DNA of 64,000 nucleotides, taken from the IMG/VR virus record IMGVR_UViG_3300047666_001531; one strand, given 5' to 3'. The position numbers were made by a program, and so were the translations under genes. Under the pieces are notes generated by a model. It was not told where the DNA came from, searched no databases, and saw only the letters and a list, made by a program, of their open reading frames with translations. The stretch is from a virus (lineage: Duplodnaviria; Heunggongvirae; Uroviricota; Caudoviricetes). Below are positions 3,376-48,283 of the stretch, piece after piece (position 1 is the first letter of the stretch; every line of letters begins with the position of its first letter).

Positions 3376-3900
3376 TTAATTTTTAGACTGCAATACCAAA
3401 TACATTTCTTCCACTTTAAGTCTATGCTCTTCAGTTTGAGGAGCACCACCAAAGTTTTTCTGCAAGAAATATTTGACCTTGTCTGCCTGAGTGACAGGTT
3501 TACTGTCGTTTGATAATAACTCGTTTGATGTTAATCGCGTTTTCTTGAAATTTCTTTGATCTGGCATTTCCATTTCACTAAAAAACAGTGGTTGGCCATT
3601 CTCAGGCTTGTAAGGGATTTTATCCTCGCAGAACATGATCAGTGTGGTTATCCGTTGTTTACCATCAACCATTTCACAGTATCGTTCAGGATCTTTTGGG
3701 TTTAATGCCACAGCAACACTGTCGATAGGTTGATTTTCGAATATAGATTTAAGTAGTGCTTGCTGATGTTCTTCTTCCCACACATAAGGTCGCTGGTACT
3801 CCGCATCTAAAAACAGCTCGCCGTCTTTATGTAGATTAAGGAAGTATCCGAGTGTCGTTGCTGTTGAACGAACGCGTAATCTTGATTCAAATAAACTCAT
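3376..3900 (-). CDS. DUF262 / ParB-like (GmrSD N-terminal type) domain protein, 174 aa
   Basis: Contains YQRPYVW and DGKQRITTL, the two signature blocks of the DUF262 ParB/Srx-fold NTP-binding domain. No HNH/DUF1524 half is present. Confidence 0.5.
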   Translation of the reverse strand: MSLFESRLRVRSTATTLGYFLNLHKDGELFLDAEYQRPYVWEEEHQQALLKSIFENQPIDSVAVALNPKDPERYCEMVDGKQRITTLIMFCEDKIPYKPENGQPLFFSEMEMPDQRNFKKTRLTSNELLSNDSKPVTQADKVKYFLQKNFGGAPQTEEHRLKVEEMYLVLQSKN

Positions 3901-3922
3901 ATGATGCTCTTTTTAAAAAATT

Positions 3923-3941
3923 ATGACTTACTGTAAGTCAT
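3923..3941. promoter_or_regulatory. 19-bp perfect palindrome ATGACTTAC-T-GTAAGTCAT in the 5' region of 3376..3900
   Basis: The sequence equals its own reverse complement except at the central base. It lies 23 nt upstream of the minus-strand ATG. Confidence 0.5.
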
Positions 3942-3959
3942 CCTTCGTCAAAAGTAAAT

Positions 3960-3994
3960 AAAAGATTGACAAATTTATCATAATGAATATAATT
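3960..3994 (+). promoter_or_regulatory. class-A promoter (TTGACA, 16 nt spacer, TATAAT)
   Basis: aaaaGATTGACAAAtttatcataatgaaTATAAT. Confidence 0.65.
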
Positions 3995-4029
3995 AATACT
4001 GTAAATCACACACACAAGGAATACACAAA

Positions 4030-4473
4030 ATGAATACAGCAACAGCAGAAATTAACACTATTACTCCATCTGGCACAAAACTTTTCAAAGTAAGTGATGA
4101 AAAGACTACGGAAGAGGCTTTGTTTATAGGGGTTCAACTTGAGTTCCCTAAGGTTTTCTCGACCACTTTAGAGGTTCACTTGGCGTTTGTGGATACTTAT
4201 TTCGATGAGATGGGTGCGAGTGGGCATTATTGGTTAATGGGTGAGAAGTTTAAAGATGTGGTTGTTCGCGAGCTTGGTTATTCGCAAATGAATATGTCGA
4301 AAGAAGCTATCAAGGCATCGACCCAGTTTCACTCAGACAAAACCGTTGTTCAAATGATATTAAGAATGACTAATCCAGAGAGTACAGAAGAAGAATGCGG
4401 TTATGTTGAGTCAGAGCTAAAAGAGTATATGACGGCTGGTTACATCTCGAACTTTCAGCAGTTCTGTTTATAG
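4030..4473 (+). CDS. hypothetical protein, 147 aa
   Basis: ATG with cacacacaAGGAAtacacaaa leader. Flanked by inverted class-A promoter copies. Confidence 0.5.
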   Translation: MNTATAEINTITPSGTKLFKVSDEKTTEEALFIGVQLEFPKVFSTTLEVHLAFVDTYFDEMGASGHYWLMGEKFKDVVVRELGYSQMNMSKEAIKASTQFHSDKTVVQMILRMTNPESTEEECGYVESELKEYMTAGYISNFQQFCL

Positions 4474-4540
4474 TTAACTGTTGGTAGGCGCTTTAAGCTA
4501 TTAGAGCAAGCTATGTGTTTATTGATTATGGCTGGCAGAT

Positions 4541-4568
4541 TATAATGATAAATTTGTCAATCTTTTTT
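4541..4568 (-). repeat. inverted, 6-bp-deleted copy of the 3960 class-A module
   Basis: Minus strand reads AAAAGATTGACAAATTTATCATTATAAT, which is the 3960 sequence minus AATGAA. The -35/-10 spacer is therefore only 10 nt. Confidence 0.5.
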
Positions 4569-4569
4569 G

Positions 4570-4598
4570 TTGACATGTAGCTTTTTTATATTTACTAT
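4570..4598 (+). promoter_or_regulatory. sigma70-like promoter (TTGACA, 17 nt spacer, TACTAT)
   Basis: Hexamers at 4570-4575 and 4593-4598, upstream of 4628. Confidence 0.45.
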
Positions 4599-4627
4599 AT
4601 TGTTATCTAAACTAAATAAGGAATAAC

Positions 4628-6025
4628 ATGAAAAGAACACTAAAAACCACTTTGCTTATTGTCGCTATGGCGTTCAGTTTCACATCAGCGTCGAAAGATT
4701 TTGAAGAAAAAATTCTGGGTCTGCCAGATGAGTTAAAATCACCACGATTAACCGCTGAGCACCATGGTGATTTTAAGTTATCGACTGTCGCTAAACGATT
4801 GCAGAATTCATCATCAAAAACTCTTATGACGAACAAGCTTAAGCCCTTGATTGAAATTGACACGTTTTTAAAATTAAAAACCGACCCTACCCCTACCGAC
4901 TCCAAGTTTATTAAATATATGAGTTTGGTTGAAAGATATGGTCAAGCTAATGGTTTTGAGAAAAAGCGTGTAATGAAAGAAATCGAAGCATTTGCCACTG
5001 AAATACCTGAGCAAGATGTGTCGCCTTTGGCGGGTAAGACATTTTTGGTTAAGGCGGGTGATGTTGAGTATTCAGCTCCGTTTGATTTTGACAATATGAG
5101 TAAAGCAGTTCAAATGTTGAATGCTTCGTGTCGTTCGCTTGGCCTATGGAGTGATTCAGGGCTAAATGGTAATGAACGCTTGCAAAAAATGATTAATCGA
5201 AATATTGCGCTAGTGCATGGTGAATATGGGCTGAAACAATCATATGGCGGAAAAAAACGTAATTGCTTTGTAGAGCTGGTGTTTGACAATGAAGGGCTTG
5301 CAGAAAAGGTTGAAGAGGTCACTCATAGTGGTAATTTAACGCTATTTATTGAATTTGAAGTAGCTGGTAGCGTGATCGACGAACATATGATTGCGGTGGC
5401 ACGAAATCTTATAGTGACCGAATCCGAGGTTATCAAGGGTAAAGGTAGAGGTAGTGTTCAATATAACTATCTGACACATTATGCAGAGCCTAAATCTGTT
5501 TCTGAAAAACTCAATGCTAATATGTTTGTGGAAAACAATGCACTTTCCACATTAAATGCTAGTGATGTGCCTGTTGACGAAAAAACAATTGGTGCTTGGA
5601 ATGCTGAGTGGAACAGTGATACGGCTGTATTTCCGTTGCACGGGAAAGACCTGAGTATTTTGGATGATTCAGATTTTTTTATTAGAAAAACTGATAACAC
5701 CAGTTTTATGATCATGTCTTATACTGGTGATTGGGAGCACGGCGCAATTGGTAAATACGAAATTGATAAGTCGGGTAAATTTGCCTTGTTAACCCAGCTA
5801 TATAGCACGGGATATAGCTTGCCTGAACGTTTACTTGTTTTTGCTAATTTTTATGACAACAAAGTGTCCGAAGCTTTATTGTACGGCTTTGATTCTCGGT
5901 TGCAGATAAGAGCAAACAAGCCTTATAAAATGGATTCGTGGGAAAACATCGCGGCAGAATTAGGGTACACCGAGGGAGCGTTAAAGCCATATGTTAACTC
6001 CCTTCCCACCGCAGCATTGAAGTAG
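4628..6025 (+). CDS. secreted hypothetical protein, 465 aa
   Basis: N-terminal signal peptide MKRTLKTTLLIVAMAFSFTSA. AAGGAATAAcATG start. Terminator follows. Confidence 0.6.
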   Translation: MKRTLKTTLLIVAMAFSFTSASKDFEEKILGLPDELKSPRLTAEHHGDFKLSTVAKRLQNSSSKTLMTNKLKPLIEIDTFLKLKTDPTPTDSKFIKYMSLVERYGQANGFEKKRVMKEIEAFATEIPEQDVSPLAGKTFLVKAGDVEYSAPFDFDNMSKAVQMLNASCRSLGLWSDSGLNGNERLQKMINRNIALVHGEYGLKQSYGGKKRNCFVELVFDNEGLAEKVEEVTHSGNLTLFIEFEVAGSVIDEHMIAVARNLIVTESEVIKGKGRGSVQYNYLTHYAEPKSVSEKLNANMFVENNALSTLNASDVPVDEKTIGAWNAEWNSDTAVFPLHGKDLSILDDSDFFIRKTDNTSFMIMSYTGDWEHGAIGKYEIDKSGKFALLTQLYSTGYSLPERLLVFANFYDNKVSEALLYGFDSRLQIRANKPYKMDSWENIAAELGYTEGALKPYVNSLPTAALK

Positions 6026-6040
6026 AAGCATACTTTAACA

Positions 6041-6068
6041 ACCCCACTGCAACGTGGGGGTGTTTTTT
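6041..6068 (+). terminator. rho-independent terminator (ccccac..gtgggg, then T6)
   Basis: Hairpin plus T-run after the 6025 stop. Confidence 0.6.
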
Positions 6069-24129: not shown

Positions 24130-24290
24130 TCACTATAGAAAAAGTTGAATTAAGTAGTTCAGCTTTTTCTATCTGAAATTCACTCAGTATCACTAGAGAA
24201 CATTCCTCTGTCGTGAGGTTTTATGCGGTGTTGCTAATTTGTAGTATAAAATATATACTACATGGGAATAAGGCAACATTTGGGATTGAT

Positions 24291-25031
24291 ATGCGAGGAT
24301 ATAGACCGATAAAACGGCTGATCAGAGCGCAAAAAAAGGGCGAAGGTAAAGCCGAGGTTGCAACAAAGAAACAGTTTAAAAACATTCTTTGGCAATCTTC
24401 TCGTGGTTCGCTTGGCAGGAGAAATGTAGCGATAGTTTGGATGTTGTTCGGTAGTGGTTGCAGGATTAACGAAGTGGCAAAATTCAAGGTTTCTGATCTA
24501 ATCAGAGAAACCAATGAATTAAGAACTACTTTTGTTATCAAGGGTGGTTACACCAAAACAGGCAAGCCAAGAGCCGCTTATATTCTCTATAAGAGCCACC
24601 GCAGAGCGATTGAGGCGTGGATTGATGAACTTATAGAAGAAGGTGTAGGTCAATCTGGTGAAGAGTCTTATAGAGGCTTACGAAAAGATTATCCTTTATT
24701 TGCCATTACTAAAAAAGGTCGATATTGGCGCAAGATGGCATTTAGGGACAAAAAGTACAAAGATGCTGAAGGGAACATTAAAACCACAAAGGTTTGTGGC
24801 TCGTTACAAAATCTGATTAGTGAGCTATTTAAGAACGCTGGTTTACATGGCGGCTCATCACATTCAGGGCGAAGAACGCTTGCTACTTGGCTTGACCAAA
24901 AAGGGATTGAGCTTAAAACGATACAACTTATTTTGGGGCATGAAGATGCCAACATGACACTTGAATATATTGATCCCAATTTTGAACGTATACAAGCTGC
25001 TTTTGATAAAACATTAATCAATATTGATTAG
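24291..25031 (+). CDS. tyrosine recombinase, catalytic domain only, about 247 aa
   Basis: GCRINEV (Arg I), HSGRRTLAT (HxxR) and LGHEDANMTLEYI (His-II plus nucleophile Tyr). No N-terminal core-binding domain. Confidence 0.65.
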   Translation: MRGYRPIKRLIRAQKKGEGKAEVATKKQFKNILWQSSRGSLGRRNVAIVWMLFGSGCRINEVAKFKVSDLIRETNELRTTFVIKGGYTKTGKPRAAYILYKSHRRAIEAWIDELIEEGVGQSGEESYRGLRKDYPLFAITKKGRYWRKMAFRDKKYKDAEGNIKTTKVCGSLQNLISELFKNAGLHGGSSHSGRRTLATWLDQKGIELKTIQLILGHEDANMTLEYIDPNFERIQAAFDKTLINID

Positions 25032-25043
25032 AGGTAAATTAAA

Positions 25044-25259
25044 ATGACTGAGAAAAAAGAGAAACCTAACAAAGATCTTGAGTACAACAAGAAACGCATA
25101 CCTATCTTACGTGTTGAGGCTACAACGGCTGATAGCGAAGATGAAATTGAAGAAATGTTTCAGATGAAAGACCATGTTATTGAAAAATCAGGTTCGGCAA
25201 AACAAGGCATTATTGACATGTATAGGTTTGCCAAAAAGAACGGTTATTTTAATAAATAA
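25044..25259 (+). CDS. hypothetical protein, 71 aa
   Basis: gaggtaaattaaaATG start. Confidence 0.4.
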   Translation: MTEKKEKPNKDLEYNKKRIPILRVEATTADSEDEIEEMFQMKDHVIEKSGSAKQGIIDMYRFAKKNGYFNK

Positions 25260-42546: not shown

Positions 42547-42762
42547 TTAAGCCGCTATTTTTAGTTCTGTAACATTGCTTATGCGTTCGACATTGATACA
42601 GCCTTTGTAGGCACTTGTGATCTTAACGGATTCGCCAGCAATGATATCGCTGTCAGTGTTTAAAAACCAAATACGATCAGCAATGACAATAGAATTGCCA
42701 AGCCCTGAATGCTTAGGCTTTGTGGTAATATCTTCTTTTATTTTAATGACCATACCGGCCAT
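42547..42762 (-). CDS. hypothetical protein, 71 aa
   Basis: ORF only. Confidence 0.25.
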   Translation of the reverse strand: MAGMVIKIKEDITTKPKHSGLGNSIVIADRIWFLNTDSDIIAGESVKITSAYKGCINVERISNVTELKIAA

Positions 42763-42932
42763 AGATTTGAAAAGCTCTTTTCTTCAATTTCTTTGTTTTT
42801 TGTTTTATATGCCGTTAATCCAATCAACGTAAATAATGCTACTAGTCCAATGTAAATCATATATAACTCCAAATTAATGTAGAGTTATTTTAGTCGAATT
42901 GCCTTTAAATTCAACTAAATCCACCTTATAGA

Positions 42933-42969
42933 TAAAAGATTGACAAAATTATCAAATTGAAATATTATG
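42933..42969 (+). promoter_or_regulatory. class-A promoter (TTGACA, 17 nt spacer, TATTAT)
   Basis: aaaaGATTGACAAAattatcaaattgaaaTATTAT. Confidence 0.55.
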
Positions 42970-46640: not shown

Positions 46641-46719
46641 GGGTATAATCCTTTATATTTAAATTCCACAAGTTTATTTTAGCATGGTAGAGTGAGAATC
46701 CATCTAGCGAAAACCTAAA

Positions 46720-46756
46720 TAAAAGATTGACAAATTATCATAATGATGTCAATATG
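46720..46756 (+). promoter_or_regulatory. class-A promoter (-35 conserved, -10 uncertain)
   Basis: aaaaGATTGACAAAttatcataatgatgtcaatat. Contains an internal inverted repeat ATTGACA..TGTCAAT. Confidence 0.4.
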
Positions 46757-46816
46757 CATTTAATGATATGCAATATTAATGCATTAACAACTTTATATAA
46801 AATTAGGAAGTCGAAT

Positions 46817-48283
46817 ATGTTGAAATTAACAACCATTCTTGCAGTTACTTTATTAAGCGTTTCAGCTCTTGCTGAAAACGTGAGTATGTTTAACATTCAC
46901 TATAACGACTCATCCGGCACAGGAGTTCGCAGCACTGAACCCTTTACAACAAGTGAAGGTCGTGTGACCACTGTTGGAGAATACAGAAAAGAACTTATTG
47001 AACACACTACGCGTGCTGTTTCATTGCAGTTCAATCATGTTGTCCCTCATAAGCTTGTTCTTGATTTTAAAGCACCTAGCGGTTATGCAGCTTTGACTTC
47101 GGGACCCTCTTTTACTGAGTTTAGTGAATACGACCGTAAAGATAAATTCGGGTTTCTTGAAGTAGGGCGTTCTTATCCAAGCACGCTTGTTAGTGCGCTT
47201 AAATCGATTAAAAACTCTCACGATGAAGATGCGGTTGTTTCGTTTGCTGATAATGTCGATGATTTGCGTACCAATCGAGAACACGTATATCCTCCTATAG
47301 TTTATTCTGCCTACCACGAAATGATGCATGTACTAGGTTTTGTTGGTACAGACTGTTTGGGTAAGTGCATACCTGAGCCGACCAGTAAAAAAGGTCACAT
47401 TTCACCTTATCTTTATTATAATGATAATGGCACTGTAAAGGCTTTTGAGTCGCTTTCAATGACCAAGAAAACTCATGCTTACATGTCAACTGACAAACTG
47501 TGGTTTGGTGGTAGTGAGACGTCAAGAAACGCTGCTATGAAAGAGCTTTCAGCAGGTCATACTAATGGCTTTGTTTATATGTTTGCCACTCCTAGCGTTG
47601 AAACGGGTAGTGTAGATCCACAAGCGGGCAATCATTTTTCGTTTGAAGTTCAGCCGGCGCAGTTGATGCGTTCTTCACGTGCTAGCACTGTTGATATCGG
47701 CATGGCGGCTTATTTACTTTGTGATGCGGGTTGGTGTCAAAGAGGTGGTAAAGTTATTGAGCAGTCGGTAAAGGCTGTATTGAATGAAAATGCGAGCAGC
47801 GACACAGAATCGGTTATTGATATTACGGTAAGCGAAAACCTGAATGTTGGTGTAAAAGAGTTTGAGTTAACAATTATCCCTGATGCGGGGATGAATGTGA
47901 TAGAATTTCAAGATCCAGATGGTGTTTGCTCGGAGAGAAATGGTGGTTATTACTGTTTAGGTGGTCTGAACCCTTACGAGAAAATGAATGCAAGACTTAT
48001 TGTAACGCCATCAAATGAATATACTTTAAAGGGTGATTTGCGTTCTACCGGTTTTGATGTTGATCGTAACGGTTTTAATAACATTTTGGATGTTACATTG
48101 TCTAAAGCGGCAGCCCCACTACCTGTACAAACAGCACCTGTAACCAGTGCTCCTGCGAAAACTGAAAATGGTGGCGGCGGTAGCGGCGGTGGTTCGATGT
48201 CGTTTGTAATGTTGCCTTTATTGCTAGTTGCCTTAATAAGACGTAAGCACGTTGTTGGTAAAGCAGCTGCGGGATCTAAATAA
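46817..48283 (+). CDS. secreted zinc metalloprotease with GlyGly-CTERM sorting signal, 488 aa
   Basis: Signal peptide MLKLTTILAVTLLSVSALA. AYHEMMHVLGF HExxH motif. C-terminus GGGGSGGGSMSFVMLPLLLVALIRRK matches Gly-Gly, TM helix, basic tail of rhombosortase substrates. Confidence 0.6.
   Translation: MLKLTTILAVTLLSVSALAENVSMFNIHYNDSSGTGVRSTEPFTTSEGRVTTVGEYRKELIEHTTRAVSLQFNHVVPHKLVLDFKAPSGYAALTSGPSFTEFSEYDRKDKFGFLEVGRSYPSTLVSALKSIKNSHDEDAVVSFADNVDDLRTNREHVYPPIVYSAYHEMMHVLGFVGTDCLGKCIPEPTSKKGHISPYLYYNDNGTVKAFESLSMTKKTHAYMSTDKLWFGGSETSRNAAMKELSAGHTNGFVYMFATPSVETGSVDPQAGNHFSFEVQPAQLMRSSRASTVDIGMAAYLLCDAGWCQRGGKVIEQSVKAVLNENASSDTESVIDITVSENLNVGVKEFELTIIPDAGMNVIEFQDPDGVCSERNGGYYCLGGLNPYEKMNARLIVTPSNEYTLKGDLRSTGFDVDRNGFNNILDVTLSKAAAPLPVQTAPVTSAPAKTENGGGGSGGGSMSFVMLPLLLVALIRRKHVVGKAAAGSK

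What the first reader, a model, noticed from the sequence alone, without database searches (positions are those of the whole stretch)
3958..4575. ORF 4030..4473 is flanked by inverted copies of the class-A module, the distal one carrying a 6-bp deletion
Plus strand 3960-3987 reads AAAAGATTGACAAATTTATCATAATGAA-TATAAT. The minus strand at 4568-4541 reads AAAAGATTGACAAATTTATCAT-TATAAT, identical except for loss of AATGAA. That loss collapses the spacer to 10 nt, so the distal copy is probably non-functional. About 24 bp of near-perfect inverted repeat thus bracket a single 147-aa gene across about 615 bp. This could be a remnant of cassette inversion or duplication, or the ends of a miniature mobile unit. 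Either way the promoter module would be behaving as a recombination end rather than only a promoter. A short tyrosine recombinase is encoded at 24291.
Basis: seen in the sequence. Interest (0 to 1): 0.5.

Follow-up and report, generated by a model that had tools for sequence, protein, structure and literature searches.

The report
Orphan inverted promoter fragment beside a gene
The inverted repeat around this small gene is real, but it consists of two members of a promoter family repeated about 40 times in the window, one working and one broken copy facing backwards, and nothing indicates that it flips or moves the gene.

Summary
AAAAGATTGACAAATTTATCAT occurs exactly at 3960-3981 (+) and 4566-4545 (-), followed by AATGAA-TATAAT proximally and TATAAT distally.

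The proximal copy is the conserved sigma-70 promoter of the 147-aa gene (TTGACA-16-TATAAT). The distal copy has a 10-nt spacer, unique in the window, so it cannot fire leftwards. It lies back to back with the promoter of the next gene (TTGACA 4570-17-TACTAT).

The repeat is not special within its context. The window holds about 40 copies of one promoter family. The 22-nt identity tops a continuum: 21 nt with a copy 42 kb away, then 20 and 18.

The bracketed gene keeps the same position and orientation in every relative found:
- 24 contigs carrying the identical protein.
- A 97-99% identical strain, L013.
- Two lineages at 58-62% protein identity, which lack the repeat.

The only nearby presence/absence polymorphism is loss of the neighbouring 465-aa ORFan in L013. 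Its endpoints lie inside that ORF and the inverted fragment is left in place.

Best reading: a vestigial, truncated family promoter at the edge of a variable cargo slot. It is not an inverton or a mini mobile unit. Interest is low.

The parts
3960..3993 (+). Proximal 'class-A' promoter of the 147-aa gene. A-tract AAAAGA, -35 TTGACA (3966-3971), 16-nt spacer, -10 TATAAT (3988-3993).
   Evidence: 12/12 consensus match. Conserved upstream of the orthologous gene in L003, L004, L009 and L013, and identical in L008.
3977..4005 (-). Candidate overlapping leftward promoter (TTTACA-17-TATGAT) for the divergent GmrSD_N gene. It would make the proximal module bidirectional.
   Evidence: 10/12 consensus match on the minus strand. 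The minus-strand gene starts at 3900. Function is inferred, not shown.
3376..3900 (-). GmrSD_N (DUF262) domain gene, 174 aa, divergent from the 147-aa gene.
   Evidence: PF03235, E = 1.7e-19. Syntenic in all relatives.
4030..4473 (+). 147-aa ORF bracketed by the repeat. It is conserved but of unknown function.
   Evidence: No Pfam or PHROG hit. Only 3 protein clusters among 5.8 billion proteins. AlphaFold2 pLDDT 59.8 and no significant fold match.
4539..4566 (-). Distal inverted promoter fragment: AAAAGA, TTGACA (4560->4555), 10-nt spacer, TATAAT (4544->4539). No usable -10 and no gene to serve.
   Evidence: The 10-nt spacer is unique. Retained with 1 substitution in L013. Absent from L004. 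Only a 16-nt partial match in L003.
4518..4554 (+). Weak imperfect hairpin (TTTATTGATTAT / ATAATGATAAA) whose 3' arm is the inner end of the inverted fragment. Read rightwards it also gives TTTATT-17-TATAAT and an extended -10-like TGATAAATT.
   Evidence: Fold z-score is only -1.75. L003 has a perfect 14-bp hairpin at the equivalent place (z -4.9), and its 3' arm matches window 4539-4554 at 15 of 16 positions.
4570..4598 (+). Promoter of the 465-aa gene (TTGACA-17-TACTAT). Its -35 lies 9 nt from the inverted -35, back to back.
   Evidence: 10/12 consensus match. Retained in L013. Borderline similarity to L003 6590-6628, where a different ORF follows (2 of 300 shuffles score as high).
4628..6025 (+). 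465-aa ORFan with a signal-peptide-like N-terminus. It is lineage-specific cargo in the slot between the 147-aa and ERCC4 genes.
   Evidence: No homologue other than itself. Absent in L004, replaced by an unrelated 115-aa ORF in L003, and reduced to a remnant of about 45 nt in L013.
6042..6067 (+). Intrinsic terminator after the 465-aa gene.
   Evidence: Retained in L013 with an expanded C-tract.
42934..42967 (+). Another class-A copy (AAAAGATTGACAAAATTATCAAATTGAAATATTAT) in a divergent intergenic region.
46718..46750 (+). Another class-A copy (AAATAAAAGATTGACAAAT-TATCATAATGA). It shares a 21-nt exact run with the proximal copy and also sits in a divergent intergenic region.

Best explanation
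The two arms are two members of one highly repeated sigma-70 promoter family. The family consensus is aaaWGATTGACA, a 16-nt spacer ending in ..ATTATGA, then TAAAnT, which gives an extended -10. This family precedes almost every gene or small operon of this giant metagenomic element.

The proximal arm is the working, conserved promoter of the 147-aa gene. It probably overlaps a leftward promoter for the divergent GmrSD_N gene.

The distal arm is an orphan. It keeps the A-tract, the -35 and the first part of the spacer, but homology to the family stops where the real -10 should be, so RNA polymerase cannot start leftwards from it. It sits back to back, 9 nt away, with the promoter of the next gene, at the left edge of a slot whose cargo differs between lineages.

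I read it as the vestige of a once divergent promoter pair, or of a partial promoter copy, left by an old rearrangement at this slot. Today it contributes at most AT-rich upstream DNA to the rightward promoter.

Shown: the sequences, the spacings, the family, the synteny and the polymorphism endpoints. Inferred: the promoter activities, the vestige history and any residual upstream role.
For: - Family: 21 exact GATTGACA sites and about 40 sites allowing one mismatch, nearly all intergenic and pointing at a gene. The family is also present at orthologous positions in L002-L005.
- The 22-nt identity is the top of a continuum of 22, 21, 20, 18 and 18 nt.
- The distal copy is no closer to the proximal one outside the 22-mer than to other members.
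- The 10-nt spacer is unique, while the family peaks at 16-17 nt.
- The proximal promoter is conserved in all lineages. The repeat is absent from L003 and L004.
- The cargo slot is variable: a 465-aa ORFan in the window, a 115-aa ORF in L003, and a 41-nt gap in L004.
- Between the window and L013 the distal intergenic region is the least conserved part of the locus (92.2%, against 96.1% for the proximal intergenic region and 96.8-98.9% for the genes). The two arms now differ (21/22), so there is neither special constraint nor homogenisation.
Against: - No transcription data exist, so 'dead leftwards' rests on spacing rules alone. A weak alternative, TCAACA-17-TATCAT (9/12), exists on the minus strand.
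- A 16-nt stretch of the fragment (ATTAYAATGATAAATT) matches 15 of 16 positions in the 3' arm of a strong hairpin at the same relative position in L003. This could mean that part of the fragment is old and functional.
- In L013 one substitution turns the site into a perfect 14-bp palindrome, TGACAAATTTGTCA, which looks like an operator.
- The event that created the fragment was not reconstructed.
Confidence: 0.55

Rival explanations
1. PeSL-like recombination substrate. The repeated promoter modules serve as short homologies for cassette shuffling, as in T4-type phages, and the orphan inverted fragment is the footprint of one such exchange that brought in or replaced the cargo gene.
For: - A dense family of near-identical strong promoters with AT-rich upstream tracts precedes ORFans.
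- The fragment lies at the edge of a slot whose cargo differs in three lineages.
- The rightward promoter region is similar in the window and L003 although the downstream ORFs are unrelated.
- The PeSL precedent is described in PMC2839356 and PMC4122927.
Against: - The only polymorphism resolved at nucleotide level (L013) has its endpoints inside the 465-aa ORF with only 2-4 nt of microhomology, not at the modules.
- Recombination between inverted copies inverts a segment; it does not excise or insert one, and no inverted arrangement was seen.
- The similarity to L003 is borderline (2 of 300 shuffles).
- The window's modules lack an integral stem-loop.
Confidence: 0.17
2. Paired regulatory sites. 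The shared 16-bp quasi-palindrome TTGACAA-NN-TTRTCAT is an operator for a dimeric regulator, or an RNA-polymerase decoy. It would overlap the -35 of the 147-aa gene promoter and sit just upstream of the next promoter, co-regulating or insulating the two, possibly through a loop of about 585 bp.
For: - The quasi-palindrome is present in both arms, and the distal one becomes a perfect 14-bp palindrome in L013.
- There is no terminator between the 147-aa and 465-aa genes, so some insulation could be useful.
- The class-A spacer is conserved in the orthologous promoters.
Against: - The palindrome is not enriched in the window (4 matches against 3.3 expected).
- The spacing between its half-sites varies among class-A copies (N1 at 46725, N2 at 3964 and 42938).
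- The pseudo-symmetry is explained by a -35 overlapping the extended -10 of the opposite strand.
- The distal site is absent in L004 and degenerate in L003.
- The distal region evolves faster than its surroundings.
Confidence: 0.13
3. Rightward-acting composite element. Read on the plus strand, the distal fragment with the upstream hairpin forms a second, weaker promoter (TTTATT-17-TATAAT, or extended -10 TGATAAATT) and/or an attenuating stem-loop for the cargo gene. The leftward TTGACA would then be incidental.
For: - A perfect TATAAT at 4541-4546 and TGATAAATT at 4546-4554 lie on the plus strand.
- L003 has a strong hairpin with promoter-like arms at the same place (z -4.9).
- PeSL subclasses with stem-loops overlapping the -10 are known.
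Against: - The -35 is poor (3/6) and the window's hairpin is not significant (z -1.75).
- A good promoter already follows 25 nt downstream.
- In L013 the T of TAAATT is mutated.
Confidence: 0.1
4. Inverton or miniature mobile unit. The repeat arms are recombination ends that invert or mobilise the 147-aa gene, perhaps through the tyrosine recombinase at 24.2 kb.
For: - Inverted repeats of 22 nt about 560 nt apart fit the geometry used to nominate invertons (definitions in PMC11892184 and PMC11602134).
- A tyrosine recombinase gene exists in the window.
Against: - Orientation and position are the same in 24 contigs, in L013 and in two diverged lineages.
- The repeat is absent in L003 and L004.
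- There is no target-site duplication.
- The unit is single copy: only 3 protein clusters in the whole database, all at this locus.
- The recombinase lies 20 kb away and has no copy of the repeat near it.
- Inversion would not change expression of the gene.
Confidence: 0.04

Closest known systems
PeSL (promoter-early stem-loop) regulatory cassettes of T4-type phages (Arbiol et al. 2010, PMC2839356; Comeau et al. 2014, PMC4122927)
   Same: Both have many near-identical strong sigma-70-type promoters with AT-rich upstream tracts. These sit in front of ORFans in plastic regions, each gene carries its own promoter, and variable cargo lies next to the repeats.
   Different: - PeSLs are defined as composite promoter plus stem-loop terminator motifs. 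Here the stem-loop is weak or absent, and terminators are separate elements.
- PeSL-mediated events have endpoints in directly repeated PeSLs and yield mini-circles. Here the copies are inverted, and the one resolved indel (L013) ends inside the ORF.
- The host element is a 0.34-0.58 Mb metagenomic replicon with no T4-like markers in the window.
Invertons (invertible DNA segments flanked by inverted repeats and flipped by site-specific recombinases; PMC11892184, PMC11602134)
   Same: A short inverted repeat (22 nt) flanks a segment of a few hundred bp that contains a promoter.
   Different: No second orientation was seen in any assembly, there is no adjacent recombinase, and the repeat is not conserved in the L003 and L004 lineages. 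The functional -10 lies inside the segment, so flipping would not switch expression.
Divergent (back-to-back) and overlapping bidirectional sigma-70 promoters in compact bacterial and phage intergenic regions (general knowledge)
   Same: The distal fragment and the 4570 promoter have the geometry of a back-to-back pair. The proximal module appears to carry overlapping promoters for both strands, as do the class-A copies at 42938 and 46725, which also sit between divergent genes.
   Different: The leftward partner of the distal pair has lost its -10 and points into the 3' end of a codirectional gene, so it is an orphan.

Membership tests
Sigma-70 promoter (distal copy, leftward) | -35 and -10 hexamers separated by about 16-18 nt | tested here: not met
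   TTGACA-10 nt-TATAAT. At spacings of 16-18 nt the hexamers are CTGCCA, TGCCAG and GCCAGC. The proximal copy meets the feature at 12/12.
Inverton | Inverted repeats flanking the segment | tested here: met
   22-nt exact arms, or 25 nt at 96%, with 557 nt between them.
Inverton | Both orientations present in the population | tested here: not met
   A single orientation in 24 contigs carrying the identical protein, in L013, L002/3/5 and L004/9. Read-level data cannot be tested with these tools.
Inverton | Cognate site-specific recombinase nearby, or sites matching it | tested here: not met
   The nearest recombinase ORF is at 24213-25031, 20 kb away. No copy of the 22-mer lies near it.
Miniature mobile unit (MITE/IS-like) | Target-site duplication outside the terminal inverted repeats | tested here: not met
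   The flanks AAGTAAAT (3952-3959) and TTGTTGAC (4567-4574) are unrelated.
Miniature mobile unit (MITE/IS-like) | Multiple copies, or presence/absence polymorphism of the unit | tested here: not met
   The 147-aa protein family has 3 clusters, all at the syntenic locus. No empty site was found. L010, which carries a distant GmrSD_N homologue, has a different context and no homologue of the gene.
PeSL cassette | Strong sigma-70-like promoter with an AT-rich upstream region, repeated many times | tested here: met
PeSL cassette | Integral stem-loop acting as terminator or attenuator | tested here: inconclusive
   Window 4510-4562 folds with z -1.75, and the proximal module with z +0.7. L003 has a strong hairpin (z -4.9) without a U-tract.
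PeSL cassette | Indel or replacement endpoints between close relatives fall in the repeats | tested here: not met
   The L013 deletion of the 465-aa gene ends inside the ORF, at about 4651 and about 5999. The comparison with L003 is only suggestive.
PeSL cassette | Resident in the hyperplastic regions of a T4-type phage genome | tested here: not met
   No match in the phage, plasmid or IMG/VR collections. The window encodes flotillin, HipA, DsbD, an MFS transporter, a queuosine salvage protein and similar functions, with no T4 markers.

The most novel reading that the evidence does not exclude
In this uncultured 0.34-0.58 Mb element, the promoter family of about 40 copies per 64 kb, including bidirectional 'class-A' modules, might act as portable regulatory and recombination cassettes. 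That would be a PeSL-like system outside T4-type phages. The orphan inverted fragment at 4539-4566 would then be a footprint of a module-mediated exchange that installed the cargo slot downstream of the 147-aa gene.
Probability: 0.15. Interest if true: 0.45.

Novelty: new member of a known kind. Interest (0 to 1): 0.2.

Why it matters
On its own it matters little. It is an orphaned, truncated copy of a repeated promoter, and the repeat it forms is not a switch or a transposon end.

Its value is as a caution. In genomes saturated with a single promoter family, short inverted or direct repeats around genes are expected and should be judged against the family, not against random sequence.

The wider context may deserve study of its own. 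This is a giant metagenomic replicon in which nearly every accessory gene carries the same strong extended -10 promoter, and it has a cargo slot that differs in every lineage. Whether promoter repeats drive gene shuffling outside T4-like phages could be tested there.

Tried and rejected
**Searches that found nothing**
- Identifying the window by DNA similarity to phage records (near and distant modes) and plasmid records.
- IMG/VR scans with the 22-mer, the 465-aa protein and a family-level promoter pattern.
- A GTDB genome scan with the family pattern.
- The JGI metagenome scan with the 147-aa alignment, which returned only the L003-type contig.
- tRNA and Rfam scans of the window.
- Look-up of the Tara GmrSD_N homologue P0007, which is not on record.

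**Function of the 147-aa protein**
- No Pfam or PHROG hit.
- The AlphaFold2 model has low confidence (pLDDT 59.8), and Foldseek against PDB and BFVD gave nothing with E <= 0.001.

**Ideas tested and dropped**
- Similarity between the arms extending over the whole module of about 55 nt. The local score of 48 is carried by the 22-mer; the downstream part is at chance and other family members score higher.
- TTATCAWAWTGAA as an operator motif (24 matches against 1.5 expected). Most of the 24 matches (17) turn out to be the reverse complement of the family's spacer and extended -10, followed by the inverted -35 TGTCAAT.
- A palindromic operator TTGAYAANNTTRTCAA, which is not enriched.
- A recurring short-spacer promoter class. 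The peaks at 8 and 11 nt are by-products of the family spacer, and the 10-nt spacing is unique.
- A long-range RNA duplex between the arms. The proximal arm lies upstream of its own transcription start, so it is not in the mRNA (inference).
- A terminator role for the distal region. No terminator-like site was found, and folding is not significant.

Full report
**1. The observation**

Reading 3700-4900 confirms the finding. The plus strand at 3960-3993 is AAAAGATTGACAAATTTATCATAATGAATATAAT. The minus strand at 4566->4539 is AAAAGATTGACAAATTTATCATTATAAT.

- The first 22 nt are identical. The repeat finder gives 25-nt arms at 96% complementarity with 557 nt between them.
- The proximal copy is a perfect TTGACA-16-TATAAT promoter, 37 nt upstream of the ATG of ORF 4030-4473.
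- The distal copy has TTGACA-10-TATAAT. No -10-like hexamer sits at 16-18 nt.
- Among all 60 TTGACA sites in the window, the TTGACA..TAnnnT spacer peaks at 16 nt (12 sites) and 17 nt (4 sites). The 10-nt spacing occurs only here.

**2. The right null model**

Shuffles predict 0.01 matches, but the arms are not independent sequences. The window is saturated with one promoter family.

- There are 21 exact GATTGACA sites, and about 40 allowing one mismatch with an A-rich upstream tract. They lie on both strands, are nearly all intergenic, and point at a gene.
- The consensus is aaaWGATTGACA, then 16 nt ending in tTcATTaTGA, then TAAAnT. This is a sigma-70 promoter with an extended -10.
- The motif TTATCAWAWTGAA looked like an operator at first (24 matches against 1.5 expected). 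In 17 of the 24 matches it is the reverse complement of this spacer and -10 region, followed by the inverted -35 TGTCAAT.
- Among the 780 pairs of family members, the longest in-register exact runs are 22 nt (the two arms), 21 nt (the proximal arm and the copy at 46725, 42 kb away), then 20, 18 and 18 nt.
- Beyond the 22-mer plus TATAAT the two arms are no more alike than chance: local score 15, with 253 of 500 shuffles as good, and other members score higher.
- The '6-bp deletion' is one of three possible alignments. The others are a 9-nt insertion plus one gap, and a standard family member whose homology stops at the start of its -10 (compare 19020 and 43735).

All three alignments agree that the distal copy lacks a usable -10. 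The identity therefore needs no local duplication or inversion. What is unusual is only that a family member points leftwards into the 3' end of a rightward gene and has no -10.

**3. Anatomy of the locus**

- The proximal module lies between divergent genes: GmrSD_N (3376-3900, minus strand; PF03235) and the 147-aa ORF.
- On its minus strand it carries TTTACA-17-TATGAT (4005..3977, 10/12), a plausible promoter for GmrSD_N. The module is therefore probably bidirectional.
- The other close 'class-A' copies, at 42938 and 46725, also sit between divergent genes.
- The distal fragment is followed 9 nt later by the -35 of TTGACA-17-TACTAT (4570-4598). That promoter serves the 465-aa gene (4628-6025), which ends with a terminator at 6042-6067.
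- No terminator-like site lies between the 147-aa gene and the 465-aa gene, and the region does not fold significantly.

**4. Relatives**

The window matches nothing in the phage, plasmid or IMG/VR collections. Its proteins occur on metagenomic contigs of up to 337-583 kb. The window encodes flotillin, HipA, DsbD, an MFS transporter, queuosine salvage, dUTPase, RNase H and a tyrosine recombinase. It is the accessory region of a giant element whose nature (phage or plasmid) I could not settle.

Four levels of comparison were available.

a. **Identical strain.** The 24 contigs read for each of the exact 147-aa, 465-aa and GmrSD_N proteins all show the same gene order and orientation. The two checked are 100% identical over 2.9 kb.

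b. **L013, a strain with genes 96.8-98.9% identical**.
- Order and orientation are the same, and the inverted fragment is present with one substitution (ATGATA becomes ATGACA, so the arms are now 21/22).
- The 465-aa gene is reduced to a remnant of about 45 nt: the ATG plus about 23 nt, joined to the last 24 nt or so and the terminator.
- The deletion endpoints (about window 4651 and 5999) lie inside the ORF with only 2-4 nt of microhomology. The inverted fragment and the 4570 promoter are untouched.
- The distal intergenic region is the least conserved part of the locus (92.2%, against 96.1% for the proximal one). There is thus neither special constraint nor homogenisation between the arms.

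c. **L004/L009 (147-aa protein 62% identical).** The proximal promoter is conserved, but the ERCC4 gene follows the 147-aa gene after 41 nt. There is no distal fragment and no cargo.

d. **L002/L003/L005 (58% identical).**
- The proximal promoter is conserved, and GmrSD_N has its own separate family promoter.
- The slot holds an unrelated 115-aa ORF, followed by a 99-aa N-terminal remnant of ERCC4.
- No inverted repeat brackets the gene.
- About 25 nt after the stop codon there is a perfect 14-bp hairpin (z -4.9). Its 3' arm, ATTACAATGATAAATT, matches window 4539-4554 at 15 of 16 positions.
- A stretch resembling the 4570 promoter lies upstream of the 115-aa ORF (2 of 300 shuffles score as high).

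Overall, the bracketed gene is the stable part of the locus. What varies is the slot to the right of the distal fragment.

**5. Mechanism**

Best explanation (about 0.55): the distal arm is a vestigial family promoter. It is either the leftward half of a former back-to-back pair with the 4570 promoter or a partial promoter copy. It was truncated at its -10 by an old rearrangement at the edge of the cargo slot, and it now contributes at most AT-rich upstream DNA to the rightward promoter.

The sequences, spacings, family statistics, synteny and deletion endpoints are shown. Promoter activity and the history of the fragment are inferred.

Rivals:
- **PeSL-like module-mediated shuffling (0.17).** The context is attractive, but the one resolved indel does not use the modules, and inverted copies cannot excise a segment.
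- **Paired operator or decoy sites (0.13).** The quasi-palindrome TTGACAA-NN-TTRTCAT becomes perfect in L013. However, it is not enriched, its half-site spacing varies, and it is absent or degenerate in other lineages.
- **A rightward promoter/hairpin composite (0.10).**
- **An inverton or mini mobile unit (0.04).** There is no second orientation, no target-site duplication, no nearby recombinase and no empty site. Inversion would also carry the functional -10 with the gene, so nothing would switch.

**6. Comparison with known systems**

The closest described system is the PeSL cassette of T4-type phages (PMC2839356, PMC4122927).

- Shared features: repeated strong early-type promoters with AT-rich upstream tracts in front of ORFans in plastic regions.
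- Features not met here: an integral stem-loop, indel endpoints in the repeats, and a T4-type genome.

The locus shares the inverted-repeat geometry of invertons (PMC11892184, PMC11602134) but fails the other criteria. It is best filed as an ordinary by-product of a promoter-rich genome: an orphan promoter relic.

**7. Verdict**

The reading as a recombination end is not supported, while the 'non-functional remnant' part is. Novelty is low: a new member of a known kind. Interest is 0.2.

The most novel reading still open is a PeSL-like promoter-cassette system in a giant non-T4 element, at about 0.15 probability. It could be tested by a genome-wide comparison of breakpoints against promoter positions between the window-type and L003-type elements.

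Noticed in passing
window 1-64000 (e.g. 1266, 14709-, 19020, 21318, 22161, 29460-, 33017, 40922, 43735, 58995): About 40 copies of one strong promoter family (aaaWGATTGACA, N16 ending in ATTATGA, TAAAnT, giving an extended -10) precede almost every gene. The same family occurs at orthologous sites in the L003 and L004 lineages, whose 147-aa proteins are 58-62% identical.
   Followed up: partly
window 46718-46760: This class-A copy forms ATTGACA-N13-TGTCAAT, two -35-like hexamers facing each other, with no evident -10 for either strand. The real promoter of the gene starting at 46838 is unclear.
   Followed up: no
window 3923-3941: A perfect 9-1-9 palindrome, ATGACTTACTGTAAGTCAT, lies in the presumed 5' leader of the GmrSD_N gene. 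One arm is mutated in L013, and the palindrome is not conserved in L004.
   Followed up: no
window 4006-4023; L013 3823-3842: A CA-repeat tract followed by AAGGA lies upstream of the 147-aa start codon. It is conserved in L003 and L004 and also seen before other genes (146; L002 2470). It is 2 nt longer in L013. It might be a translational enhancer.
   Followed up: no
L013 4448-4545 versus window 4628-6067: The 465-aa ORFan is reduced to a remnant of about 45 nt in a strain that is 97-99% identical. Its ribosome-binding site has decayed there (AAGGAATAAC to AAGAAACAAC), and the terminator C-tract has expanded from ACCCC to ten C.
   Followed up: yes
L003 7027-7326; L004 2851-3237: Other backbone differences exist. 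ERCC4 is truncated to a 99-aa N-terminal fragment followed by two unrelated ORFs in L003. The HAD_SAK_2 gene is missing in L004.
   Followed up: partly
L008 position 1 (equivalent to window 4029): A contig from a strain whose GmrSD_N protein is 98% identical ends exactly at the base before the ATG of the 147-aa gene, with the promoter identical to the window. This could be an assembly break caused by strain variation at this point.
   Followed up: no
window 42547-42872 (-): Two overlapping minus-strand ORFs of 44 aa and 71 aa look like a single membrane plus OB-fold (NfeD-like) gene split by a frameshift. This was not checked against Pfam.
   Followed up: no
window 25001-25044: A 28-nt imperfect palindrome overlaps the 3' end of the tyrosine recombinase ORF (24213-25031). 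It might be the recombinase's own site. It is unrelated in sequence to the 22-mer.
   Followed up: no
L001 1-1007 (upstream of the window's start in the 336,851-bp contig): A TnpB/Cas12f-like ORF and a DarA_C-domain ORF lie just upstream. Contigs carrying this locus reach 583 kb, and whether the element is a megaphage or a megaplasmid remains open.
   Followed up: no
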